From assembly GCA_026708015.1 (NCBI GenBank), contig JAPOVT010000048.1, forward strand, positions 132,112-196,111: a DNA stretch of 64,000 nt, given 5' to 3'. This DNA is from a bacterium (GTDB taxonomy: Bacteria; Actinomycetota; Acidimicrobiia; Acidimicrobiales; Bin134). Below, piece after piece: positions 15,991 through 44,799 of this stretch; positions within the stretch are counted from its first letter, which is position 1, and each line of letters starts with the position of its first letter. Both the position numbers and the translations under genes were made by a program. A model generated the notes under the pieces. That model made no database searches. It had not been told where the DNA came from and saw only the letters and a program-made list of their open reading frames with translations.

Positions 15991-16566
15991 TCACCCATCG
16001 GTTTGCAGTGTCGCAGTGCCCGCGGCCTGTTCGGCGACCTCTGTTGGCATGCCCACGCCGAGAAACCCTTCAATCCTGGCCAGCCGCTGGCCGTTGGCGA
16101 CGATTTCGTCGTGGAGCCTGCCGTAGGACTGGGTGGATTCGGAGCGGAGTCTGTTGTTGGCCTGGGTGAAATCGTCGCGGAGTCTGTTGTTGGCTTGGGT
16201 GAAATCGTCGCGGAGTCTGTCGTGGGCTTGGGTGGATTCGGAGCGGAGGCTGTCGTGGGCTCGGGTGAAATCGTCGCGGAGTCTGTTGTTGGCTTGGGTG
16301 AAATCGTCGCGGAGTCTGTCGTGGGCTTGGGTGGATTCGGAGCGGAGGCTGTCGTGGGCTCGGGTGAAATCGTCGCGGAGTCTGTTGTTGGCTTGGGTGA
16401 AATCGTCGCGGAGTCTGTCGTGGGCTTGGGTGGATTCGGAGCGGAGGCTGTCGTGGGCTCGGGTGAAATCGTCGCGGAGCTTTTCGCTGGTTCGCTGCTG
16501 ATGCCAGATGATGGCTAGTACAGCCAATACCAGTGTGACAGCTTGAACAGCCACCTCAACGCTCAC
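15991..16566 (-). CDS. Membrane-anchored protein built from 11-residue repeats (LRDDFTQANNR / LRDDFTRAHDS / LRSESTQAHDR)
   Basis: N-terminal TM helix (VAVQAVTLVLAVLAIIW) followed by about 12 consecutive 11-mers. I do not recognise a family. Confidence 0.7.
   Translation of the reverse strand: MSVEVAVQAVTLVLAVLAIIWHQQRTSEKLRDDFTRAHDSLRSESTQAHDRLRDDFTQANNRLRDDFTRAHDSLRSESTQAHDRLRDDFTQANNRLRDDFTRAHDSLRSESTQAHDRLRDDFTQANNRLRDDFTQANNRLRSESTQSYGRLHDEIVANGQRLARIEGFLGVGMPTEVAEQAAGTATLQTDG
16132..16493 (-). repeat. Tandem repeat with a 33-nt unit and an exact 99-nt super-unit, about 11 units, inside the CDS
   Basis: Units start at 16132, 16165, 16198, 16231 and so on. The 99-nt blocks starting at 16231, 16330 and 16429 are identical where they overlap. 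Confidence 0.95.
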
Positions 16567-36569: not shown

Positions 36570-37877
36570 TCAAGCCGCGCCGAGTAGCAGGGGTTCTCGT
36601 GACCCGAGCGTTCCGGGTGGGGGTTTGTTGTGGTATCCGGTTTGGCAGCAGCTATCGGGGTCGGGGCTGAAGGGGTCGGGATCGAGCATGGGTTGGAGTT
36701 CGTATTTCCCGGTGTAGGAGCACTTCACGACTGCCCAGTTTCGGTCGTGGATGTCGTGGTGGCAGGCGGTGCAGACCAAAACGAGGTTGTCCAGGTCGGT
36801 GGGGCCGCCTTGTTGCCAGGAGACGATGTGGTGGGCTTCGCACCACACGGCGGATTTGCCGCAGCCGACGCAGTGCTTATCGCGGATTATGAGGGCGGCC
36901 CGCTGAGCTTCGGTGGCCGAGCGGGCTTTGCGGCCCACATCGAGGGTCTGGAACTTCGTGTCGAACACGCTGGGAAGCAAGTCGGCGTCGCAGGCCAGCC
37001 TCAGCGTTTCTGCTTTCGTCAGCGGGGTTCCGTCGAGCAGGCGGGCATCGGCCATCTGCTGGCTGATCTGGTCCCAGCTGGCGGTCAGGATCAGCTTGGT
37101 GCCCTGCGGGCGCCGGTTCTCGGCCTCGGCGCAGACTAGGTGTTCGAGGGCATCGGCCATCCGCTGGCCGAATGTGGATTCTGTGGCGCCGTCTTGCTGG
37201 GTTCGGATTCTGCGCTCCTGAGCGGCTAGCGCGGCCTCGATCCTGTTGCCTGCCTCGGGGTCGAAACGTCCGTACACGTCGTACATGCCATCTTGCGGCG
37301 ACTTGCGGATGCCGAAGTTGCGCTTTTGGAGTTGCCGGTCTCTCAATGACCTGCCGCCGTCGGAGGCTTGTTCGGTTTGGTGGTCGCGCACCGTTCGGGT
37401 GAACTGCCCGAAGTCTTCGGTCTTGGCCGCCTCGACCAGCGCGGTTTCGTCCACCGGTCCTTCAGAGGCGGCTCGGGCGATCAGCTTGGCATGATCAGCG
37501 GGTATTTCACCGGCTTGCAGCGCCTCGGCCGTCTCGGCTGCTTTGGATAGCCGTTCCGCGTCCATTAGCTCTTTGCGGGCTTGGCTGTTGGATGCGCCCA
37601 GGGTCTCCACGGCGGCTTGGCGAGCCGCACCTTGGCCCGATCGCTCAGACAGCGCCAACAGCGTCTTGGCTTTCAAGGCCGAAATAGTCGACTCGGCCTG
37701 GCCCAAATCTACGAGGCGCTGAGACAAATCAGACTCAGACAGCGCCGCCAAATCCACCGCGGGAACGCACACCGCAGCCCCGCACCCAGCGTTCCCGCCG
37801 GCCGCAGCTCTACTGCTGTTGCCCCTGGTAGATGGCCCTAAATCCATGCATGTAATCTTACACCCCACCAGTGACAA
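36570..37877 (-). CDS. DUF222 domain HNH endonuclease (13E12-repeat-type protein), copy A
   Basis: C-terminal HNH motif CVGCGKSAVWCEAHHIVSWQQGGPTDLDNLVLVCTACHHDIH, with an N-terminal DUF222-like region. Paralog of 50433..51704. The start is uncertain, with an alternative ATG at 37847. Confidence 0.85.
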   Translation of the reverse strand: MSLVGCKITCMDLGPSTRGNSSRAAAGGNAGCGAAVCVPAVDLAALSESDLSQRLVDLGQAESTISALKAKTLLALSERSGQGAARQAAVETLGASNSQARKELMDAERLSKAAETAEALQAGEIPADHAKLIARAASEGPVDETALVEAAKTEDFGQFTRTVRDHQTEQASDGGRSLRDRQLQKRNFGIRKSPQDGMYDVYGRFDPEAGNRIEAALAAQERRIRTQQDGATESTFGQRMADALEHLVCAEAENRRPQGTKLILTASWDQISQQMADARLLDGTPLTKAETLRLACDADLLPSVFDTKFQTLDVGRKARSATEAQRAALIIRDKHCVGCGKSAVWCEAHHIVSWQQGGPTDLDNLVLVCTACHHDIHDRNWAVVKCSYTGKYELQPMLDPDPFSPDPDSCCQTGYHNKPPPGTLGSREPLLLGAA

Positions 37878-37956: not shown

Positions 37957-38649
37957 CTAGGTGGATGGGGGCAGTGAGGGTGGGAGGCTGTTGACGATTC
38001 GGGCGGTCTCGACGGAGAGGTGGATGAGGCGGCGGAGGTGTCGGATGAGGTTGAAGGGTTCGTCGGCCCAGGCGTGCCATCCGTTGGGATCGTCAGTGAT
38101 GCCGCTGGGCTTGTCGTGCTTGTGGCGGAGGCTGTCGATGGCCCAGTCGAGCGGTGTGCGGCCCGACACGGTGTATTCGTGAGCCTCCTCAGGAATGTCG
38201 ATGAGCAGGCAGCGAGGGTTGATCTCCAACGTTGAGCGGTCGGTCTCCTTGCCTTGTTTGGCCCACCGCATCTTCGTCTCGATGCGGTAGGCGGCGGGGT
38301 CGGCTTCGCCCTCGTCGGGCTGGCCGTCCACCAGGCAGACCACGGGGTGCTCGTCGACAGTCTCATAGTTGACGTGCAGGTCCATGAGCGCCCGTCCCGC
38401 GGCCCTAAACGCCTCGAAGTCGGGGGCGAGGGGCACCCTGGGCAGGTTGCGCTGGAGGTCGTGCTTGTACCGCTCCCGCCAGTCGGGTGCGTGCATCACC
38501 CCATAGAGGTACTCCCAGATGTCGTCTTTGGTGATGTGGCTGCCGTAGCGGGCATGGAACTGCTCCAGGCACCAGTCGGTGATGTTGTCAGTGTCGGCGG
38601 GTTCCGGGCTGGGCAGGCTGAGGCCAAGGGTGGGGGCGTTGTCGGTCAT
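37957..38649 (-). CDS. Type ISP restriction-modification enzyme, detached C-terminal (target-recognition) domain fragment
   Basis: NITDWCLEQFHARYG..DIWEYLYGVMHAPDWRERYKHDLQRNLPRVPLAPDFEAFRAAGRALMDLHVNYE resembles the Type ISP C-terminal domain (PF18135, from memory). It is in the same frame as the large ORF but separated from it by stops. Confidence 0.75.
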   Translation of the reverse strand: MTDNAPTLGLSLPSPEPADTDNITDWCLEQFHARYGSHITKDDIWEYLYGVMHAPDWRERYKHDLQRNLPRVPLAPDFEAFRAAGRALMDLHVNYETVDEHPVVCLVDGQPDEGEADPAAYRIETKMRWAKQGKETDRSTLEINPRCLLIDIPEEAHEYTVSGRTPLDWAIDSLRHKHDKPSGITDDPNGWHAWADEPFNLIRHLRRLIHLSVETARIVNSLPPSLPPST

Positions 38650-39255
38650 TTGCGTCGGGGGATGACTCGGTTTGCGGGATCAACAGCGTGCAGGTCGGAC
38701 AGCAGGCCTGTGGCCAATGCCGCGAACCTGGTGCGGTTCGACGGGCTGCTCAACAGGATCGCCTCTGTTTGGGCATTGCCCGGGTTTGCTGGCCCGGCCC
38801 CATCAAGTGCAGGTCGGGCAGCGATCCCGTCGCCAGCACCCCGAAGATCGCCATATTCGACGGCCCCGCTATCAAGACTGCATTCCATCTCTGGTCCGCC
38901 TTGGGATGATCCTGCATCCTCCATCGAGTGTGTTGAGGTCGCTGATTGGCTTGGCTGAGAGGACCGAGAATCTTGTCCGGCTGGACGGACTGCTGACCAT
39001 GATGGGGGGGTCATCGCACTCGGCGGGGGAGTGCCCTTGTCTGCCTCGACCCCGAGATCATGGCCAGATCGGGCAGCGTTGCTGTGGCCAGTGCTTGGAA
39101 GGTCATGTTGGAAGTTCCCGAGATCAAGATTGTCTCCGTCGGGGGACGGCTCGGGTGGGTTGGTTGGTTCCGTTGGCGCTGAGATCCATTGGGCAGTTGC
39201 TGGCGATTGCCCCGAAAATTGCCCTGTTGTTGGGTGAGGCGATGAGGATGGTGTT
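38646..39255 (-). repeat. Array of five tandem diverged copies of a ~40-codon coding module, each in a different frame from its neighbour
   Basis: Module starts lie at 39249, 39130, 39003, 38878 and 38759 (spacings 119/127/125/119 nt). Stops lie at 39124, 39011, 38872, 38750 and 38646. Consensus: ILIxSPSNxxxFxxLATxxLPDLxxxxxxxxRxxPRR. Confidence 0.85.
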
Positions 39256-42200
39256 CTCTCTCTCTCTCTCTCTCTCTCTCGGGAACATGGCGGAGACGGT
39301 CTTGACGGAGGAAAGGATGCGGGGGTCCTCATAGAGCCAGAGTTTGGTGAACGGGCGGTAGAGCACTTCGCGGATGCGGGACTCGTCGAAAACGATCTCC
39401 TCGTTCTTGCGGAGCGACTGCTTGAGGGTGTCGGTCCACTTGATCGAGTCGAGTTCAACGTTTTCGGTGACATCAGCCAGGGACTCGCCCAATTCGTAGA
39501 GCATTCGAGCCTCTTCGTAGGAGTCGATGAGTTGCTCCACGCGACGGATCAGCTCTTGTCTGCTGAACGAGTAGACGTAGACGTCGCAGTTCGTCGCTAG
39601 CCCCAAGGCATGGTCCTTGATTGCGGTGTCTTCTCTTCGGCCTCTGGAACCGATTGCACAAACCGACACCAGTTCGCTGAAGGTTCCGTCGGTGAGGTTT
39701 ACCCAGTCGTGGCCCTGGTTGATGGGGACGGTCTGGAACTGGTCGCTGGTCACATTGTCGAGGGTGGCGAGCCAGTCGAGCTTCTGAGGGAGCTTGCTGT
39801 ATTCGGGAACTGTTGCGTAGTGCAGGGTGGCTGGCTCGTTTGGGTCTTTTTCGGGGTTGCGGACGAGCACGGTGATCTGTACGCCGTTGCGGGAGCCAGC
39901 GCCAAAGATCTTGTCGCCCTCACGCCTGAACTCATCGCCCGATTTCATGGCGTCGCCCAGCAGGTTGACTACGTAGATGTCGGTGAATTCGTCGCGCAGT
40001 GAGGCCCTCATACCGGCGAGCGATGTGCCGTTGGACAGTGAGTTGGGGTGGATGAAGGCCAACACCTTGCCGGAGTCTTGCTGGCTGACTGCATTGGCCA
40101 ATCGGTCGGAGGCCCATCGGATGGCCTCCACGTAGAGATTGCCAGAGGACTTGCCGGCACCGCGCCCGGTGATCTGCTTGTGCCGCTTTCCGTAGGTGTC
40201 GCGTACGCGTTCTTCGATATGGCCGTATTCAAGGTTGGGGTTGTCGTCGCCAGCGGACTTTTGGCCGGCGGACCAAGGAGGATTGCCCACGATCACTTGG
40301 ATTGGCGCCTTGTTCTGGCGCTTGGCTCGGTCGGAGTTCTCGGCCATGTATTGGTCGAGGCCGAGCTGTTGGTGCATTTTCTCGTCGTCCATGAGAAACG
40401 TGTCGGTGAGCACGATGCCTTCGAACGGCGTGTAGCCGTGGACGCCATCGAACGCGCCTCTCTCGTCGGCAGCTTCTTCGATTTTCAGGGCGGCGATGTA
40501 GTAGGCGAGCAAGACGATCTCGTTGGCGTGCAGTTCGGTGGTGTATTTGCGGAGCAGATCATCGCTGCGGATCAGGTACTCGCCGTTGGCGCCCTTCAAG
40601 GTGAGCAAGCGGTTGATGAAGGTGCCGGTGCCGGTGAAGGGGTCGAGCACGTGAACATCTTCGGCGGTGAGGCCTTTTCCGAATTCTTGGCGGCACACCG
40701 CGTCTACAGAGCGCAGCACGAAGTCGACCAATTCCACGGGTGTGTACACGATGCCGAGCCGCTTCACGGTGGCGGCCATGGCCGCTTGGAAAAAGCCGTC
40801 GTACACCTCGCGAAGAACGTCGAGTTTCTGGGCGCCGGTAAGCGCGCCCTCGAAGGCATCGGCCATGCGGGCGTAAGCCCGAGTGAGGGGTCGTCGCTCG
40901 TGCTCAAAGGCGATGTTTTTGGCGGCGAATTCGTCCAGGAGCCGGTTGATCTGCTGCGAGACGGGGTTTTGGGTGGCGAATTGCGACCGCTCGAAGAAGG
41001 CGTCGAAGACCGGGATGGTCACAACGTGTTGAGCCACCATCTCTTGGGCATCGGCATCGGTGATCTGCGGACCTACCGTGCGCCGCATTGAGGTGGTGAA
41101 TCGGTCGAATGCGGTGGCGAGTTCGGGGAACTCCAGCAGCACTGCCTGCACTCGTCGCTGGACCTTCACACAAACGTCAGCGGCCATCTTTCCCCAGTGG
41201 GGCCACATCTGGCGGTCGCCGCAGACGTCTACCAGCTTGGAGGCGATCTTGTCGTCGAGGGCCATCTGAAGCTGGACGGCCTCGCCCACGCCTGTGCTGG
41301 TCTCGGTTTCGTCGTCGGCCTCCGGGGGGCTTGTGCTCTTGGTGCGATCGAGTACTCGTATGGGAGCCTTCTGCTTGGCCACCTCGACGTTGTTTACCCA
41401 AAAGTTGACTCGCTCGTCGTGCGACCGCAGCGCCCGGACTACGTCCCACACCACTTTGAAGTCGCTGCCGTTCAACACCGACTCAGAGGAAATGGTCTCG
41501 TCATCGGCCACGACCACCGGAATGACCACGTAGCCGCGTCTTTTGCCGGGCGCGGTTCGCATCGCTCGACCCACCGCCTGGGTGATGTCGATCTTGGAGG
41601 TGCGCCGGTCCAAGAAGATGACGGCATCGAGAGCGGGCACATCAACGCCTTCGGTGAGGACTCGGGCATTCGTCACCACTCGGCACAGGCGGGGGTCGGC
41701 GTTCGGGTCGCTGCGGTGGTCTCTGAGGGCGCTGATGTGCATGTGGCGGGTGACAGCCGCGGTGGAGCCGTCAACGTGCTGCACGTCGAGCTGGAGGTAC
41801 TCGCGGCCGCGGTCTTCCTCTCCCACGTTCTCGACCACCTTCGGCCACATCTCGGCGGTGAGCTGCGACGCCTTGACCCTGTTGGTGAAGGCGATGGCAG
41901 TGCGCGCGTGGGTGTCGTTGGCCATGTCGATCTGTCCGGTGTGGCGGTTGCCGCCCGCGCTGACCGTAAGCGGGTCGGCTAGGGCATCCCAGCAGCCGGC
42001 CAGTTTCACGTAGTCGTCGAAGGCGAGTCCCGTATCGGCGTGGCTTATCTCGGAGTCGGACTCGTAGGTGCGGCGCAGGTCGCGGTCGGAAACCGCGATG
42101 ACCACCACCTCGTAATCCGAAAGCCAGCCGCTGTCGACAGCCTCTGCGAACTCCATGTTGTAGAGCACGGGGCCGTACACCGTCTCGTCGTCCATCGAGA

Positions 42201-43401
42201 AGCTGTCGACTTCATTGGCCTCGGCCTTCTGCTTGGCCTTCTCGGTGAACACCCGTGGAGTGGCGGTCATATAGAGCCGGCGGTGCCCCCTCACATGGTT
42301 GTTGTCGTGAACCATACGGAAACCGGATTTGTCTTCGCCGGTGTTCTGTTCGAACTTGGCGGATTCGACGCCGGTTGTGCGATGGGCTTCATCGCAGATG
42401 ATGAGATCGAATTCAGCGGCGCCCTGCTCTTGGTTCTCTGCGACCTTGGGGAGGGATTGGTAGGTGCAGAACACCACGGCCATGACTTCGGGATCGGCAA
42501 GACGATCGAGTTCTGGGCGGAGCCTGGCGGAATCGGTGGTTACCGGCATGGCCAGCTCGGTGAGGTCGTCGGCAAGGTCGGCCTTCTTGGCGGAGCGGCG
42601 ACCAGAAGTGGGATCGGAGCAAACCCCGAGATAGCGGTGGCGGAGCGACTTCTGCGCGGCCCACTCGCGCATCGTCTGACCCATCAGGGCAATCGAGGGC
42701 ACCACACACAGCACCCGCCCGCCTTTGCCGGCCAGCTTCTCGGCGATCCACAGCGCCACCACTGACTTGCCGGTGCCACAGGGCAGGACCATCTGGCCCC
42801 GGCTGTCGGAATTGTTGAGGCCTTCTACAACCGCCCGCACAGCATCGTGTTGATAGGGGCGCGGCGCGTATCTTTTCGCATTGAATTCGAGGGCCCCAGG
42901 CCGGTCGAGGAAGTCCTCCCAGCGAACATCCCAACCGTTGATGGTGCTCCGGTCGAGCACTTCGCAGCGCGGCGTGGCCTTCTCGATCTTTCGCCAAGCG
43001 TTGTCGGTCAGTCCGCCGGTGGCCACCAGCAGACGGGCGGAAAAGTCGTCGGTGCCCGACTCCGCCAAGAACGAGTCCACCGCGCTGGTGGGAACCGTGG
43101 AGGTGTCCTCGTACGCCTTGCACTGGATAGCGCACAGCCCGCCGCCGAAGTCGTCGCTCTGCTCGGCAACCAGATCGATGCCGCAATCTGGGCCGAACCC
43201 CCTTTTGCGGCGATCGGGCCACTCCGACCAGCGCCAAACCTTCTCGAAGCGAGTCTCCCCGTACTCCCCAGGGTGCTTTTGCAGCGCCTCGGCTATCAGG
43301 CGCTCAAACAATTGACCCCGAAGCTGGGGCTTGTCTGGCCCCCGCTCCTTCAAAAGGGTGATTACATCCCGATGGCTACCTGGGGGGGGGGGGGGGGTCA
43401 T
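39124..43401 (-). CDS. Type ISP-like restriction-modification enzyme (Mrr-like nuclease, SF2 helicase-like ATPase, gamma-class N6-adenine methyltransferase), truncated before the C-terminal domain
   Basis: PD-(D/E)xK-like GIDLVAE..AIQCK. Helicase motifs PCGTGKS, DEAH (IICDEAHRTTG), TATP and QAVGRAMR. Methylase motifs DPFTGTGTF and NPPW (VGNPPWSAGQ). The start was chosen at ATG 43401 (MTPPPPPGSHRD). Confidence 0.88.
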   Translation of the reverse strand: MTPPPPPGSHRDVITLLKERGPDKPQLRGQLFERLIAEALQKHPGEYGETRFEKVWRWSEWPDRRKRGFGPDCGIDLVAEQSDDFGGGLCAIQCKAYEDTSTVPTSAVDSFLAESGTDDFSARLLVATGGLTDNAWRKIEKATPRCEVLDRSTINGWDVRWEDFLDRPGALEFNAKRYAPRPYQHDAVRAVVEGLNNSDSRGQMVLPCGTGKSVVALWIAEKLAGKGGRVLCVVPSIALMGQTMREWAAQKSLRHRYLGVCSDPTSGRRSAKKADLADDLTELAMPVTTDSARLRPELDRLADPEVMAVVFCTYQSLPKVAENQEQGAAEFDLIICDEAHRTTGVESAKFEQNTGEDKSGFRMVHDNNHVRGHRRLYMTATPRVFTEKAKQKAEANEVDSFSMDDETVYGPVLYNMEFAEAVDSGWLSDYEVVVIAVSDRDLRRTYESDSEISHADTGLAFDDYVKLAGCWDALADPLTVSAGGNRHTGQIDMANDTHARTAIAFTNRVKASQLTAEMWPKVVENVGEEDRGREYLQLDVQHVDGSTAAVTRHMHISALRDHRSDPNADPRLCRVVTNARVLTEGVDVPALDAVIFLDRRTSKIDITQAVGRAMRTAPGKRRGYVVIPVVVADDETISSESVLNGSDFKVVWDVVRALRSHDERVNFWVNNVEVAKQKAPIRVLDRTKSTSPPEADDETETSTGVGEAVQLQMALDDKIASKLVDVCGDRQMWPHWGKMAADVCVKVQRRVQAVLLEFPELATAFDRFTTSMRRTVGPQITDADAQEMVAQHVVTIPVFDAFFERSQFATQNPVSQQINRLLDEFAAKNIAFEHERRPLTRAYARMADAFEGALTGAQKLDVLREVYDGFFQAAMAATVKRLGIVYTPVELVDFVLRSVDAVCRQEFGKGLTAEDVHVLDPFTGTGTFINRLLTLKGANGEYLIRSDDLLRKYTTELHANEIVLLAYYIAALKIEEAADERGAFDGVHGYTPFEGIVLTDTFLMDDEKMHQQLGLDQYMAENSDRAKRQNKAPIQVIVGNPPWSAGQKSAGDDNPNLEYGHIEERVRDTYGKRHKQITGRGAGKSSGNLYVEAIRWASDRLANAVSQQDSGKVLAFIHPNSLSNGTSLAGMRASLRDEFTDIYVVNLLGDAMKSGDEFRREGDKIFGAGSRNGVQITVLVRNPEKDPNEPATLHYATVPEYSKLPQKLDWLATLDNVTSDQFQTVPINQGHDWVNLTDGTFSELVSVCAIGSRGRREDTAIKDHALGLATNCDVYVYSFSRQELIRRVEQLIDSYEEARMLYELGESLADVTENVELDSIKWTDTLKQSLRKNEEIVFDESRIREVLYRPFTKLWLYEDPRILSSVKTVSAMFPRERERERENTILIASPNNRAIFGAIASNCPMDLSANGTNQPTRAVPRRRQS
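39255..39280 (-). repeat. (GA)13 dinucleotide microsatellite inside the Type ISP CDS, encoding RERERERE
   Basis: Thirteen consecutive TC units counted on the plus strand from 39255 to 39280, immediately 5' of module 1. Confidence 0.95.
43382..43397 (-). repeat. C16 homopolymer (G16 on the plus strand) in codons 2-7 of the Type ISP gene
   Basis: Sixteen G counted from 43382 to 43397. The minus strand reads ATG ACC CCC CCC CCC CCC CCA. Confidence 0.9.
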
Positions 43402-43557: not shown

Positions 43558-43632
43558 TCGGGAGTGGTGTAATTGGCAACACACCGGGTTCTGGTCCCGA
43601 TATTGGGGGTTCGAGTCCTCCCTCCCGAGCCA
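43558..43632 (+). tRNA. tRNA-Gln (anticodon CUG)
   Basis: Manual cloverleaf. Acceptor TCGGGAG/CTCCCGA (U1:A72) with discriminator G73 and encoded CCA. D stem GTGT/ACAC. Anticodon stem CCGGG/CCCGA (one mismatch) with loop TTCTGGT. T arm GGGGG-TTCGAGT-CCTCC. Confidence 0.85.
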
Positions 43633-43659: not shown

Positions 43660-44799
43660 TCAAACGCCCCAGATGTGGAACAGGTCGGGGGTGGCGAACC
43701 AGTGGCGGGTGCGGCCGGGGGTGGAGGTCGGTACGTCGATGGGGGACAGGATGGCGCGGGAGGCGAGCGCAGACAGGGCGGTGCGGGCGCTGCGCTCGCT
43801 GGTGCCGAGCAGATCGGCGACGTCGCCTGCACTCAACAGCGGGTGGGCGGGCAGATAGGAGAGCAGCGCTCGTGCCGAGTGGTCGGCTCGCAGATCGGCG
43901 ACTGCCTCTTCCCATTGAGCTAGTAGCGCGCTGGTTTGATCGATGATCTGGTGGGTGGTGGAAGCAGCCCTTTGAGCGGTTTCGGCGAACCACTTGACCC
44001 ACGGTTCGAGGGTTCCCTGTTCGTAGAGTCGGAGGCCGGATAGGTAGCCGCCGGGGTCACGGACGATGGCCATGCTGACGGGGACGGTGGATCGAACGGT
44101 GGTCTCTCGCCGTCGCAGGGTTCGGCTGATCAGCGCCCGTCCGAGGCGACCGTTGCCGTCGCCGTAGGGGTGGATGGCCTCGAACTGGGCGTGGATCACC
44201 GCCGCGTGGGAGACCGGGTCGAGGTCTTCGGGGGTGGCGTTGGCGAAGGCGATCAGGTCGTCGATCAGCCGCGGTATCTCCGCGGGCGGCGGGGGGACGT
44301 AGGCCGCGTCGAGAGGGGAGCTGCCGCCCACCCAGCCCATCGCGGGGCGGAACACTCCGACCATGTCGGGGGGAAGATTCCCATGCTGCATGAGCTGTCG
44401 ATGCCATCGGTGCAGCGCGTCGACGGTCAGTGGCTCATGGGCGGTTTCCAAAGCCCGGTCGATCACTACCAGGTTGGCGGCCACCCAGCCCGCGGTGCCG
44501 CCCGCGCTGGTTCGCTCCGCAATCAGCACGGATTCGATGGGCTCGCGCAGCCCCTCGATGCCCGAGGATGCCACTCCCTCGTTGCGCAGTAGGAGCCTGG
44601 CCATAGCTTCCCAACGGTCGGGCAGCCGGGCGTCGGCGAGCCGCAAGGCAGCGCAGGCCCGCTCGCTGGCCCGTGCAGCAGAGGCGGACAGCTCCATGGG
44701 GCGCTCTCGAAGAAGAGCCGGGACCCACGCTTGGACCGGTCGGCCATTCCAGTCGATCTCAACCGAAAATCCCGAATAGCCTTCCGAATCTGCGGCCAT
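43660..44799 (-). CDS. Fic family protein (AMPylase-type) with an N-terminal inhibitory motif and a C-terminal wHTH-like tail
   Basis: Fic motif HPYGDGNGRLGR. SSGIEG matches the (S/T)xxxE(G/N) auto-inhibition motif. The stop lies 28 nt from the tRNA-Gln 3' end. Confidence 0.88.
   Translation of the reverse strand: MAADSEGYSGFSVEIDWNGRPVQAWVPALLRERPMELSASAARASERACAALRLADARLPDRWEAMARLLLRNEGVASSGIEGLREPIESVLIAERTSAGGTAGWVAANLVVIDRALETAHEPLTVDALHRWHRQLMQHGNLPPDMVGVFRPAMGWVGGSSPLDAAYVPPPPAEIPRLIDDLIAFANATPEDLDPVSHAAVIHAQFEAIHPYGDGNGRLGRALISRTLRRRETTVRSTVPVSMAIVRDPGGYLSGLRLYEQGTLEPWVKWFAETAQRAASTTHQIIDQTSALLAQWEEAVADLRADHSARALLSYLPAHPLLSAGDVADLLGTSERSARTALSALASRAILSPIDVPTSTPGRTRHWFATPDLFHIWGV

What the first reader, a model, noticed from the sequence alone, without database searches (positions are those of the whole stretch)
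38646..39255. Five tandem, diverged, mutually frame-shifted copies of one coding module split a Type ISP restriction-modification gene
This region lies on the minus strand between the 1425-aa nuclease-helicase-methylase ORF (stop at 39124) and the 230-aa C-terminal-domain ORF (start at 38649). The same ~40-codon module occurs there five times, head to tail.

Module starts are at 39249, 39130, 39003, 38878 and 38759. The spacings are 119, 127, 125 and 119 nt, none divisible by 3. Successive copies therefore sit in frames 0, +2, 0, +2 and +1:

- M1 NTILIASPNNRAIFGAIASNCPMDLSANGTNQPTRAVPRRRQS*
- M2 ETILISGTSNMTFQALATATLPDLAMISGSRQTRALPRRVR*
- M3 PPIMVSSPSSRTRFSVLSAKPISDLNTLDGGCRIIPRRTRDGMQS*
- M4 NAVLIAGPSNMAIFGVLATGSLPDLHLMGPGQQTRAMPKQRRSC*
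- M5 TEAILLSSPSNRTRFAALATGLLSDLHAVDPANRVIPRRK*

For M1, M3 and M4 the terminating TGA is formed by the first codons of the next module (TCTTGAT, CCTGTTGAG) read out of frame.

The copies share only about half their residues by eye, so this is not a recent or assembly-type duplication. Yet every copy keeps a full-length open module.

Characterised Type ISP enzymes (LlaGI, LlaBIII) are single polypeptides. Here the array sits exactly at the junction before the C-terminal specificity domain. I am not aware of any described RM gene carrying alternative out-of-frame junction modules.

Possible meanings are a switchable activity/specificity device or an unusual decay product.
Basis: partly seen in the sequence, partly recalled or inferred. 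Interest (0 to 1): 0.86.

Follow-up and report, generated by a model that had tools for sequence, protein, structure and literature searches.

The report
Repeat-controlled five-way specificity switch in restriction enzyme
A bacterial restriction-modification gene carries five alternative versions of one DNA-reading loop in different reading frames, and slippage-prone simple repeats decide which version is made, a layout found in about 75 related genomes and apparently not yet described.

Summary
It is a conserved, selected device, not gene decay.

**What the modules are.** The five roughly 40-codon modules (minus strand, 39255..38646) are alternative copies of one element of the Type ISP target-recognition domain. 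That element is the beta-hairpin plus Loop VI. In LlaGI and LlaBIII, Loop VI reads base +3 of the target.

Three slippage-prone repeats sit in the gene:
- (GA)13, directly before M1
- C7, between M2 and M3
- C16, two codons after the start codon

**How the frames work.** The frames form a decision tree.
- GA as found gives M1, the present state.
- GA one unit shorter gives M2.
- The third frame reads through to C7, which then selects M3, M4 or M5.
- All 9 simulated states end exactly at a module stop.

**Support from relatives.**
- 76 of 79 related loci carry such arrays. They are mostly sponge-symbiont Acidimicrobiia, plus three other lineages. The commonest layouts hold 3, 5 or 7 modules.
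- Frames that must stay open have 20-fold fewer stops than controls.
- All nine loop types have pN/pS of 0.3-0.4 in their own frame.
- Five contigs with no mismatch over 4 kb differ only in repeat lengths, and so in the module that is in frame.

**Still inferred.** That the modules change DNA specificity has not been tested.

**Closest precedent.** The two-state Helicobacter pylori Type IIG switch JHP1272.

The parts
43382..43397 (-). C16 homopolymer two codons after the ATG (43401) of the large gene. Probably an ON/OFF frame switch. It is in frame at present (MTPPPPPGSH...).
   Evidence: Close relatives have poly-Pro runs of different length at this spot (P0126, P0127, P0128). 13 related loci have a C9-C19 tract at the 5' end of the ORF.
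39124..43401 (-). Large subunit gene as read in the present state (1425 aa). It encodes Mrr nuclease, SF2 helicase, coupler, N6-adenine methyltransferase and the N-terminal part of the recognition-domain core (Loops IV and V and the jaw), and ends in module M1.
   Evidence: Pfam. Identical to database protein P0001. Aligned to LlaGI and LlaBIII.
39255..39280 (-). Switch 1: (GA)13, translated as RERERERE, directly upstream of M1. Its length modulo 3 selects frame 0 (M1), frame 2 (M2) or frame 1 (read-through).
   Evidence: The same position holds a repeat with a unit that is not a multiple of 3 in nearly all related loci.
39124..39255 (-). Module M1 (frame 0) with its TGA stop. Loop VI reads SANGTNQPT; the residue at the base-reading position is Ser. 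This is the module in frame at present.
   Evidence: (E = 6e-17).
39011..39136 (-). Module M2 (frame 2) with its TGA stop. Loop VI reads AMISGSRQT; base-reading residue Ala. It is reached with GA12 or GA15 (product 1462 or 1464 aa).
   Evidence: (E = 1e-18).
39004..39010 (-). Switch 2: C7 tract between M2 and M3. It is read only in the read-through frame and selects M5 (C7), M4 (C6) or M3 (C8 or C5). It is at the short end of the range seen in relatives (C7-C20).
   Evidence: The sister strain has C12 or C15 here and L002 has C14.
38872..39006 (-). Module M3 (frame 0) with its TGA stop. Loop VI reads NTLD--GGC; base-reading residue Asn.
   Evidence: (E = 6.5e-14).
38750..38884 (-). Module M4 (frame 2) with its TGA stop. 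Loop VI reads HLMGPGQQT; base-reading residue His.
   Evidence: (E = 1e-22).
38646..38765 (-). Module M5 (frame 1) with its TGA stop, which overlaps the ATG of the small-subunit gene (ATGA). Loop VI reads HAVDP--AN; base-reading residue His.
   Evidence: (E = 3e-17).
38646..39473 (-). Open third frame (frame 1) across M1-M4. It is the read-through path that carries ribosomes from switch 1 to switch 2 and on to M5. It encodes a linker rich in Pro, Ser, Gly and Arg.
   Evidence: Across loci, required out-of-frame codons have a stop density of 0.0015, against 0.031 and 0.029 in controls. Linker composition: 12% hydrophobic residues.
37957..38649 (-). Small subunit gene (230 aa). It encodes the end of the recognition-domain core plus the 'guide' subdomain (Type_ISP_C profile positions 166-341).
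   Evidence: It is a free-standing gene in other positions in 24 related loci.

Best explanation
This is a two-subunit Type ISP restriction-modification enzyme. One DNA-reading element, the beta-hairpin plus Loop VI of the recognition-domain core, is encoded five times as alternative terminal cassettes placed in different reading frames. Simple-sequence repeats act as address switches.

**Step 1 (inferred from the known behaviour of such repeats, and supported by natural polymorphism in a sister strain).** Replication slippage changes the length of (GA)13.

**Step 2 (shown by direct translation).**
- Frame 0 ends the large subunit in M1.
- Frame 2 reads M1 out of frame as a linker and ends in M2.
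- Frame 1 reads through both modules to the C7 tract.
- The length of C7 then puts M5, M4 or M3 in frame.
- No state at these two switches gives a dead end. ON/OFF control would be supplied separately by the C16 tract at the 5' end.

**Step 3 (inferred).** The large subunit, ending just after Loop VI, assembles with the separately translated 230-aa small subunit to complete the recognition domain.

**Step 4 (inferred from LlaGI/LlaBIII structures).** The five Loop VI versions carry Ser, Ala, Asn, His or His at the residue that reads base +3, and their loops differ in length. Each state should therefore methylate and restrict a different target sequence.

**Net effect.** The switch would be heritable, reversible and stochastic, with five states. 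It needs no recombinase. It would diversify defence, and possibly methylation-dependent gene regulation, within a clonal population.
For: **Anatomy and simulation in the window**
- All 9 combinations of GA and C tract lengths end at a module stop, and all 5 modules are reachable.

**Conservation of the layout**
- 76 of 79 loci recovered with a query from the constant region carry arrays. The layouts are [repeat][2 modules][repeat][3 modules] in 29 loci, [repeat][2][repeat][2][repeat][3] in 10, and [repeat][3] in 7.
- Across 73 loci, 333 of 352 modules are reachable and 767 of 837 repeat states end at a module stop.

**Selection for the read-through paths**
- 244 of 248 required out-of-frame stretches are open, against 65.5 expected.
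- Stop density is 0.0015 in required out-of-frame codons. It is 0.031 in non-required out-of-frame codons of the same arrays and 0.029 in the gene bodies.

**Repeat types**
- In 49.5 kb of arrays there are 106 mono-, 38 di-, 24 tetra-, 1 penta- and 2 heptanucleotide repeats, but only 1 weak trinucleotide repeat.
- In 252 kb of gene body there are 34 mononucleotide and 7 trinucleotide repeats and one hexanucleotide repeat.

**Each module is used as protein**
- pN/pS is 0.31-0.41 in its own frame for all nine loop types, against 0.94-2.1 in shifted frames.
- 99.8% of loops are distinct within a locus.

**Natural switching**
- Contigs L080-L084 come from separate assemblies. They have no mismatches over 4 kb and an identical array wherever they overlap.
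- They differ only in (GA)n and C-tract length.
- Their products end in module 1 (P0124) or module 4 (P0002, P0128).
- The same pattern is seen for P0164 and P0171.

**Structural role of the module**
- The module aligns to LlaGI 1342-1380. This covers the hairpin at 1347-1358 and Loop VI at 1365-1374.
- The variable residue corresponds to H1368 in LlaGI (reads G) and N1360 in LlaBIII (reads A) (PMC4872093).
- Across 352 modules the flanking Asp-Leu is invariant, while this residue is H, C, A, N, S or K.

**Present states across genomes**
- In the 5-module loci the module now in frame is M1 in 9, M2 in 9, M3 in 3, M4 in 2 and M5 in 5.
- This is close to the 1/3, 1/3, 1/9, 1/9, 1/9 split expected from random frames in such a tree.

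**Precedent**
- Homopolymer-driven specificity switching by a duplicated recognition segment has been shown experimentally for the H. pylori Type IIG enzyme JHP1272 (PMC3936762).
Against: **Untested links**
- No experiment links any module to a DNA motif. The change of specificity rests on homology to two solved enzymes about 25-30% identical in this region.
- The module-only profile hits LlaGI only weakly (E = 0.078), although in the same register as the longer alignment.
- Assembly of a large subunit ending after Loop VI with a separate small subunit is untested. An AlphaFold model of the large-subunit C-terminus was too poor to use (pLDDT 59.9, module region below 50).

**Limits specific to this window**
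- C7 is short for a hypermutable tract.
- The 5 contigs of the window's own strain all show the same state. Switching is therefore documented in a sister strain, not in this strain.

**Structural and biological concerns**
- States M2-M5 insert 40-165 residues of out-of-frame linker into the recognition domain. Whether the fold tolerates this is unknown.
- A switch of specificity exposes the unmethylated host chromosome to its own nuclease. How this is avoided is unknown.

**Data caveat**
- Repeat lengths in metagenome assemblies can carry errors.
Confidence: 0.68

Rival explanations
1. The repeats act mainly at the RNA level. RNA polymerase slips on the long homopolymers or on the GA run, so one cell makes a mixture of all module isoforms at once. 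This would be a multi-specificity enzyme pool rather than a heritable switch.
For: Tracts in relatives are long (median 12 nt for mononucleotide runs, up to 37). The all-frames-productive design would serve this purpose equally well.
Against: DNA-level length differences between otherwise identical contigs are seen directly, and they change the annotated product. Transcriptional slippage is best documented for A/T runs (own knowledge), whereas these tracts are G/C and GA/AC. The window's C7 is short for this. The two mechanisms are not exclusive.
Confidence: 0.12
2. The modules are real alternative C-termini but do not change sequence specificity. Instead they tune activity, for example the balance of methylation and restriction, binding of the small subunit, or enzyme stability.
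For: Only homology links Loop VI to base reading. Three loop types share His at the contact residue. The last module is often translationally coupled to the small-subunit gene through an ATGA overlap, which could make small-subunit supply depend on the state.
Against: Variation is concentrated at the residue and loop that contact bases in LlaGI and LlaBIII, while the scaffold residues are invariant. Every locus keeps a non-redundant set of loops. The small-subunit gene is elsewhere in 24 loci, so coupling cannot be general.
Confidence: 0.12
3. The locus is a decaying pseudogene. Tandem duplications and frameshifts accumulated in a dead Type ISP gene.
For: The gene is split relative to LlaGI/LlaBIII. 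Many cluster members on long contigs are fragments.
Against: The architecture is conserved across about 75 genomes in four lineages at 50-95% identity. All module types are under purifying selection. Stops are depleted 20-fold exactly where read-through is needed. 101 of the 120 top homologues end in a module.
Confidence: 0.02
4. Termination-reinitiation: ribosomes stopping at each overlapping stop restart at the NTG of the next module. This would produce separate 40-aa peptides and, finally, the small subunit.
For: In the window the junctions read TTGA, ATGA, TTGA, TTGA, ATGA.
Against: Across loci the commonest junction is CTGA (79 of 192). Only about half carry ATG, GTG or TTG. The overlap follows from the conserved Ile-Leu/Met-Ile codons of the next module. 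A free 40-residue hairpin-plus-loop has no obvious function.
Confidence: 0.03
5. Assembly or sequencing artefact at a repetitive region.
For: Contigs L080 and L081 break just before the C tract.
Against: The units are only 40-62% identical, so they cannot be collapsed or expanded by an assembler. The same layout is present in dozens of complete chromosome-level assemblies.
Confidence: 0.01

Closest known systems
Helicobacter pylori Type IIG enzymes JHP1272 / HP1353-HP1354 (Hpy99XIV), with 'specificity switching' by homopolymers (Krebes et al. 2014, PMC3936762)
   Same: It is a combined restriction, methylation and recognition enzyme. A first homopolymer gives ON/OFF. A second homopolymer near the 3' end decides whether a duplicated copy of part of the recognition domain is translated, which changes the bases read next to the methylated adenine. 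This was shown experimentally (GGWTAA against GGWCNA).
   Different: It has two states, not five. There is one extra segment appended in frame, not a tandem array of mutually out-of-frame cassettes each ending in a stop. It has no nested read-through frame and no separate small subunit. It belongs to the MmeI-like Type IIG family and lacks a helicase.
Phase-variable Type III mod and Type I hsdM/hsdS genes ('phasevarions') driven by simple-sequence repeats (PMC5909438, PMC7383803)
   Same: Repeats with a unit that is not a multiple of 3 lie inside a restriction-modification gene. Tract length changes stochastically and reversibly, giving population heterogeneity in methylation.
   Different: Those switches are ON/OFF (or give a truncated HsdS). 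Different specificities come from different alleles in different strains, not from several cassettes addressed by frame within one gene.
Type I hsdS shufflons with multiple inverted or duplicated hsdS copies (for example pneumococcal SpnIII; PMC7394358, PMC7557576)
   Same: One locus stores several alternative recognition modules and switches between up to six specificities within a clone.
   Different: Those switch by site-specific or homologous recombination between inverted repeats, usually with a recombinase. Here all cassettes are in direct orientation, no recombinase is adjacent, and selection is by reading frame.
Canonical Type ISP enzymes LlaGI and LlaBIII (PMC4872093, PMC3553950)
   Same: They have the same domain order (Mrr nuclease, SF2 helicase, coupler, gamma-class N6A methyltransferase, recognition domain) and the same hairpin plus Loop VI element.
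   Different: They are single polypeptides with one Loop VI, no repeats, and the guide subdomain fused.
C-terminal sequence switching by homopolymers in Helicobacter canadensis (PMC2823697)
   Same: A repeat near the 3' end changes the C-terminal sequence of a protein rather than switching it off.
   Different: As far as I read that paper (title and abstract only), the alternative tails are simple frame alternatives. They are not homologous, selected copies of a functional module, and there is no hierarchy.

Membership tests
Type ISP restriction-modification enzymes | Mrr-family nuclease, SF2 helicase-like ATPase, coupler, N6-adenine methyltransferase and recognition domain, in this order | tested here: met
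   Pfam hits in order: Mrr_cat_2, ResIII/DEAD/Helicase_C, ISP_coupler, N6_Mtase (19.9 bits, just under its 20.4-bit cut-off), Type_ISP_C. Alignment to LlaGI and LlaBIII chains.
Type ISP restriction-modification enzymes | All functions in a single polypeptide (the 'SP' of ISP) | tested here: not met
   Type_ISP_C is divided. Profile positions 4-151 are in the large ORF and 166-341 in a separate 230-aa ORF. 101 of the 120 closest homologues stop after a module. The small gene is free-standing elsewhere in 24 loci. It is best described as a split, two-subunit relative.
Type ISP restriction-modification enzymes | ATP-dependent translocation with cleavage on collision, and one-strand m6A methylation of an asymmetric site | not testable with these tools
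   Biochemistry is required.
Repeat-driven phase-variable (contingency) loci | A simple-sequence repeat with a unit that is not a multiple of 3, inside or just upstream of the coding sequence | tested here: met
   (GA)13, C7 and C16 in the window. In related arrays, 171 of 172 repeats have frame-shifting units.
Repeat-driven phase-variable (contingency) loci | Tract-length polymorphism between otherwise identical sequences, changing the product | tested here: met
   Met for the sister strain: L080-L084 have no mismatches in 4 kb, differ in GA and C tract lengths, and have products ending in module 1 or module 4. Not seen in the window's own strain, where 5 contigs share one state.
Repeat-driven phase-variable (contingency) loci | High-frequency reversible switching within a clonal culture | not testable with these tools
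   The organism is uncultured. Read-level data or reporter constructs are needed.
Homopolymer-driven specificity switching (JHP1272 type) | A duplicated copy of a base-reading recognition segment lies downstream of a frame-shifting repeat, and each frame gives an active enzyme | tested here: inconclusive
   Duplicated base-reading segments downstream of repeats are present. The activity of each variant is untested. The enzyme is not a homologue of that Type IIG family.
Recombinational shufflons or invertons of specificity genes | Inverted repeats flanking alternative modules, and a nearby recombinase | tested here: not met
   All modules are in direct orientation. Only short, weak inverted repeats are present. 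The neighbours are Fic, tRNA-Gln, DUF222-HNH and a tRNA synthetase, with no recombinase.
Programmed ribosomal frameshifting | A conserved slippery heptamer with a downstream stimulatory structure at each junction | tested here: not met
   The junction sequences are the Ile-Leu/Met-Ile codons of the next module (ATC CTG/TTG/ATG ATC) with an embedded TGA. There is no X XXY YYZ motif. RNA structure was not examined.

The most novel reading that the evidence does not exclude
This would be a recombinase-free way for one gene to store and address several alternative protein modules. Nested reading frames form a decision tree whose branch points are hypermutable repeats. At each branch point two frames end in a cassette and the third passes on to the next repeat. 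The commonest layouts give 3, 5 or 7 heritable, reversible DNA specificities, plus a separate ON/OFF repeat. The design has spread across at least four bacterial lineages that live in marine sponges. If the cassettes do set different target sequences, it would be the first multi-allelic specificity switch driven purely by repeat slippage, and a new coding principle (frame-multiplexed cassettes).
Probability: 0.6. Interest if true: 0.92.

Novelty: new variant of a known kind. Interest (0 to 1): 0.88.

Why it matters
**Coding principle.** Repeat-driven phase variation is normally an ON/OFF device. Multi-state switching of restriction-modification specificity has so far needed recombination between stored gene copies.

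This locus points to a third route. All three reading frames are used as addresses, repeats act as selectors, and stops are purged from the paths that ribosomes must travel. The result is a compact coding scheme under clear selection. It turns 'out-of-frame' sequence into functional linker.

**Phage defence and epigenetics.**
- One clone could present several target specificities in turn, hedging against phages that have acquired the current methylation pattern.
- It could also drive several alternative methylomes (phasevarions).

**Annotation.**
- Current annotation labels these genes 'DEAD/DEAH box helicase', and many cluster members are fragments.
- Such loci are therefore likely to be dismissed as broken genes.

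**Enzyme engineering.** The nine natural Loop VI cassettes on a common scaffold form a ready-made panel for studying how Type ISP enzymes read a base.

Tried and rejected

- Tandem Repeats Finder and the exact-seed repeat finder. The units are too diverged, so only the (GA)13 run and partial 48-nt matches appeared.

**Attempts that gave nothing usable**
- NCBIfam gave no family at its curated cut-off for either ORF.
- The AlphaFold2 model of the last 500 residues of the large subunit, built with a 40-sequence alignment, had mean pLDDT 59.9 and below 50 in the module region. It was not used and no fold search was run.
- A scan of JGI metagenome contigs for the window's own GA-repeat flanks with a variable gap gave no hits.
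- The five contigs carrying the window's exact protein (two read as DNA) gave no sign of repeat differences downstream: the small-subunit gene sits at the same distance as in the window.

**Hypotheses considered and rejected**
- Recombination or shufflon: there are no inverted copies and no recombinase.
- Diversity-generating retroelement: Pfam scans of the four flanking ORFs show no reverse transcriptase, and five diverged direct copies do not fit a template/variable-repeat pair.
- Serial programmed ribosomal frameshifting through all five modules: there is no slippery site, and five copies of one structural element in one chain make no structural sense.
- Termination-reinitiation: CTGA is the commonest junction.

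**Correction made during the work**
- About 27 loci at first seemed to lack the small-subunit gene. A six-frame search found it upstream or on the opposite strand in 24 of them.

**Literature**
- Seven full-text searches found no description of this architecture.
- The library holds open-access papers and bioRxiv only, so absence is not proof.
Full report
**1. The observation**

On the minus strand, between the large Type ISP ORF and the 230-aa ORF, there are five head-to-tail units. Each encodes about 40 residues of the same pattern, x-I-L-I-x-x-P-S-N-x-x-x-F-x-x-L-A-T-x-x-L-P-D-L-x-(loop)-R-x-x-P-R-R.

- The units share only 40-62% of their nucleotides, so neither Tandem Repeats Finder nor an assembler would treat them as repeats.
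- A profile built from 340 modules of other genomes finds exactly these five places in the six-frame translation of the whole window (E from 6.5e-14 to 1e-22; next hit 0.4).
- Pfam places Type_ISP_C profile positions 4-151 in the large ORF, ending in M1, and positions 166-341 in the 230-aa ORF.

**2.

- Directly upstream of M1 lies (GA)13 (39255-39280), translated as RERERERE.
- Between M2 and M3 lies C7 (39004-39010).
- Two codons after the ATG of the large gene lies C16 (43382-43397).
- Tandem Repeats Finder reports only two mono- or dinucleotide runs in the 64-kb window, (GA)13 and C16; the shorter C7 was read directly from the sequence.
- The third frame is open through the whole array (ORF 39473..38646, 275 codons).

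**3. The frame logic in the window**

Translating the gene with altered tract lengths gives the following products.

| GA tract | C tract | Product length (aa) | Ends in |
|---|---|---|---|
| GA13 (present) | any | 1425 | M1 |
| GA12 or GA15 | any | 1462 or 1464 | M2, after M1 is read out of frame as a linker |
| GA11 or GA14 | C7 | 1583 or 1585 | M5 |
| GA11 or GA14 | C6 | 1548 or 1550 | M4 |
| GA11 or GA14 | C8 or C5 | 1507-1510 | M3 |

- All 9 combinations end at a module's own stop, and all five modules are reachable.
- Each within-group stop is a TGA formed by the conserved Ile-Leu/Met-Ile codons at the start of the next module. Across loci, 179 of 192 junction stops are TGA, and 135 of 192 sit at one fixed offset.

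**4. The same layout elsewhere**

*Homologues and loci*
- The 120 closest homologues (48-100% identity) include MAGs named by their sources as Acidimicrobiia.
- 101 of them end in a module. Many first read through long tracts rich in Pro, Ser and Gly, after RERERE, GGGGG, PPPP, THTHTH or PSPAQ-type peptides.
- A query from the constant region just upstream of the array recovered 79 genome loci.
- These come from Ca. Poriferisocius, Spongiisocius, Poriferisodalis and Aldehydirespirator. Some come from Thermodesulfobacteriota, Dehalococcoidia and Caldilineaceae MAGs. Many are complete chromosomes.
- 76 of the 79 carry arrays.

*Layouts*
- [repeat][2 modules][repeat][3 modules]: 29 loci
- [repeat][2][repeat][2][repeat][3]: 10 loci
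- [repeat][3]: 7 loci

Within a group, successive modules step back one frame.

*Repeats*
- The repeat differs from genome to genome. Examples are (GA)5-25, (AC)10-19, C or G runs of 7-37, (GAAC)16, (CGAC)32, (ACCG)19-20, (GGTC)20, (GGAGC)12 and (CAGAGAT)10.
- Of 172 repeats in 49.5 kb of arrays, only one weak repeat has a unit divisible by 3.
- 252 kb of gene body holds 34 homopolymers, 7 trinucleotide repeats and one hexanucleotide repeat.

*Simulation*
- Over 73 loci, 333 of 352 modules are reachable, 767 of 837 repeat states are productive, and 46 loci are perfect.

**5. Selection**

- Frames that must be read out of frame to reach a later module or the next repeat are open in 244 of 248 cases. 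From the out-of-frame stop density of the same genes, 65.5 would be expected.
- Stop density is 0.0015 per codon in those required paths. It is 0.031 in the non-required out-of-frame codons of the same arrays and 0.029 in the gene bodies.
- The linkers so encoded are 78% P, S, G, T, R, Q, H, D, E, N or K and 12% hydrophobic, as expected for disordered spacers.
- The modules fall into about nine Loop VI types: GTNQP, AxIxGSxQT, NxLDGG, NxLGPNGG, HLMGPGQQ, HxxDPA, CATGRQT, HVTGRPT and KAAGIAAAC.
- Each type has pN/pS of 0.31-0.41 in its own frame and 0.94-2.1 in the other two, whether or not it is currently in frame with the gene.
- Caveat: modules were found by protein similarity, which biases pN downward. 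However, every unit of every array was captured, so no decayed class was left out.
- Within a locus, 99.8% of loops are distinct.

**6. Natural switching**

- Five contigs from separate assemblies (L080-L084) have no mismatches over the 4 kb upstream and an identical array wherever they overlap.
- They differ only by one or three GA units and by C12 against C15.
- Their annotated products end in module 1 (P0124, 1407 aa) or, after read-through, in module 4 (P0002 at 1531 aa; P0128 at 1544 aa).
- P0164 and P0171, from one 90% cluster, differ in the same way at a G tract.
- Among 5-module genomes the module now in frame is M1 in 9, M2 in 9, M3 in 3, M4 in 2 and M5 in 5. The tree with random frames predicts 1/3, 1/3, 1/9, 1/9, 1/9. 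This is suggestive only.
- The five contigs carrying the window's exact protein necessarily share its GA and C16 state, and the two read as DNA also share its array spacing.

**7. What a module is**

*Position in the solved structures*
- A virtual M5 plus small-subunit fusion aligns to LlaGI (5FFJ), LlaBIII (4XQK) and the Type IIL enzyme DrdV (7LO5). The DrdV name and class are from my own knowledge; the tool names 7LO5 only as an adenine-specific DNA methyltransferase.
- The module-only profile has LlaGI as its best PDB hit, in the same register but weakly (E = 0.078).
- With the offset of 164 between chain index and LlaGI numbering, a module equals LlaGI 1342-1380. The offset was checked on H1368, G1372 and Q1373.

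*What Kulkarni et al. 2016 (PMC4872093) report*
- Residues 1347-1358 form a conserved beta-hairpin with an omega loop that supports Loop VI.
- Loop VI (1365-1374) is one of three base-reading loops of the recognition domain.
- H1368 reads the G at target position +3 in LlaGI. The equivalent N1360 reads an A in LlaBIII. G1372 and Q1373 read the paired C.

*What the modules show*
- In the window this residue is Ser (M1), Ala (M2), Asn (M3), His (M4) and His (M5), and loop lengths differ.
- Across 352 modules the preceding Asp-Leu is invariant (348 and 345 of 352). The residue itself is H in 132, C in 77, A in 56, N in 38, S in 30 and K in 16.
- Loops IV and V and the jaw lie in the constant part of the large ORF.
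- The 230-aa ORF corresponds to the end of the core plus the 'guide' subdomain, which does not read bases.

**8. The small subunit is a separate gene**

- It follows the array within 150 nt in 30 loci, often as an ATGA overlap with the last module's stop or after an AGGAG.
- It lies 150-2000 nt away in 12 loci.
- In 24 of the remaining 27 loci it is free-standing. It sits either just upstream of the large gene or about 3 kb downstream on the other strand, with no array of its own.
- The split is therefore an ancestral, functional feature of this clade.

**9. Mechanism proposed**

- *Shown:* the anatomy, the frame logic, the selection, and the natural tract-length variants.
- *Inferred:*
  - that tract lengths change by replication slippage at a useful rate;
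  - that the two subunits assemble;
  - that the fold tolerates the 40-165-residue linkers, which enter at the position equivalent to the short FPDKNSK segment before the hairpin strand in LlaGI;
  - that each Loop VI gives a different target sequence.
- C16 would give ON/OFF. Related genes also carry G9-12 tracts inside the gene body at places where the ORF is currently broken.
- *Open problem:* how the host avoids cutting its own unmethylated DNA after a switch.

**10. Comparison with what is known**

- The nearest precedent is the H. pylori Type IIG enzyme JHP1272/HP1353-54 (PMC3936762). One homopolymer gives ON/OFF. A second one adds a duplicated recognition segment and changes the motif from GGWTAA to GGWCNA.
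- That enzyme has two states and one appended segment. Here 3, 5 or 7 mutually out-of-frame cassettes are addressed through a nested read-through frame, in a helicase-containing enzyme with a separate small subunit.
- Type III and Type I phasevarions use repeats for ON/OFF (PMC5909438, PMC7383803).
- Multi-state Type I switches use recombination (PMC7394358).
- No recombinase or reverse transcriptase lies near this locus. Its neighbours are Fic, tRNA-Gln, DUF222-HNH and a Glu/Gln-tRNA synthetase.
- Seven full-text searches found no description of this architecture. The library is limited to open-access papers and bioRxiv.

**11. Verdict**

- The 'switch' reading is supported and the 'decay' reading is rejected.
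- The architecture itself is essentially certain.
- I put the claim that it switches DNA specificity at about 0.6-0.7.
- It is a new variant of repeat-driven phase variation of restriction-modification systems, with a coding logic that I could not find described.

Noticed in passing
window 43558-43632 (+): A tRNA-Gln (CTG) gene lies 157 nt upstream of the ATG of the large gene, on the opposite strand. The mechanical ORF call (GTG at 43584) runs into it, so ATG 43401 is the likely start. A tRNA next to a defence gene may mark an island boundary.
   Followed up: partly
window 43660-44799 (-) and 36570-37877 (-): A Fic/DOC-family gene lies upstream of the system and a DUF222-HNH endonuclease gene downstream. 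The same order (aminotransferase, DUF7124, Fic, large gene, small gene, DUF222-HNH, tRNA synthetase) is kept in the sister contigs L082-L086.
   Followed up: partly
window 16106-16479: A strong tandem repeat is present: 3.8 copies of 99 nt (96% matches), themselves made of 33-nt subunits (11.3 copies, 83% matches). It is the highest-scoring repeat in the window and is unrelated to the finding.
   Followed up: no
L004, L006, L008, L012, L013, L022, L024, L026, L029, L030, L032, L041, L063, L066, L068 (gene bodies): G9-G16 tracts lie inside the large gene, exactly where the in-frame ORF is currently interrupted. They suggest extra ON/OFF or domain-splitting switches, for example separating the nuclease-helicase part from the methyltransferase-recognition part.
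   Followed up: partly
L036 766-1342, L067 871-1748, L072 2054-2673, L079 345-1147, L017 1208-1485: A second module array lies upstream of the one used to fetch the locus. Some genomes therefore carry two such Type ISP genes in tandem. Several genomes also have two loci far apart (OZ244029, OZ242339, OZ242363, OY730440, OZ244918).
   Followed up: no
window 39600-40200 and 38900-39250, compared with L084: The window and its sister strain are 97-100% identical in the gene body and the small-subunit gene. Identity falls to 43-73% over M1-M3 and is patchy (48-92%) in the N-terminal recognition-domain region. M1-M3 are of different loop types in the two strains. Cassettes and recognition loops have therefore been exchanged by recombination between close relatives.
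   Followed up: partly
protein clusters of P0014, P0012, P0058, P0033: Within 90%-identity clusters, many members are fragments of 200-1200 aa on long contigs of up to 1.9 Mb. This fits frequent frame breaks at internal repeats and means gene callers routinely fragment these genes.
   Followed up: no
L023, L026, L032 (about 1.7-1.9 kb) and L008, L012, L013, L022, L034, L044, L068 (about 0.55-0.8 kb): Extra DNA lies between the last module and the small-subunit gene. Its content was not examined.
   Followed up: no
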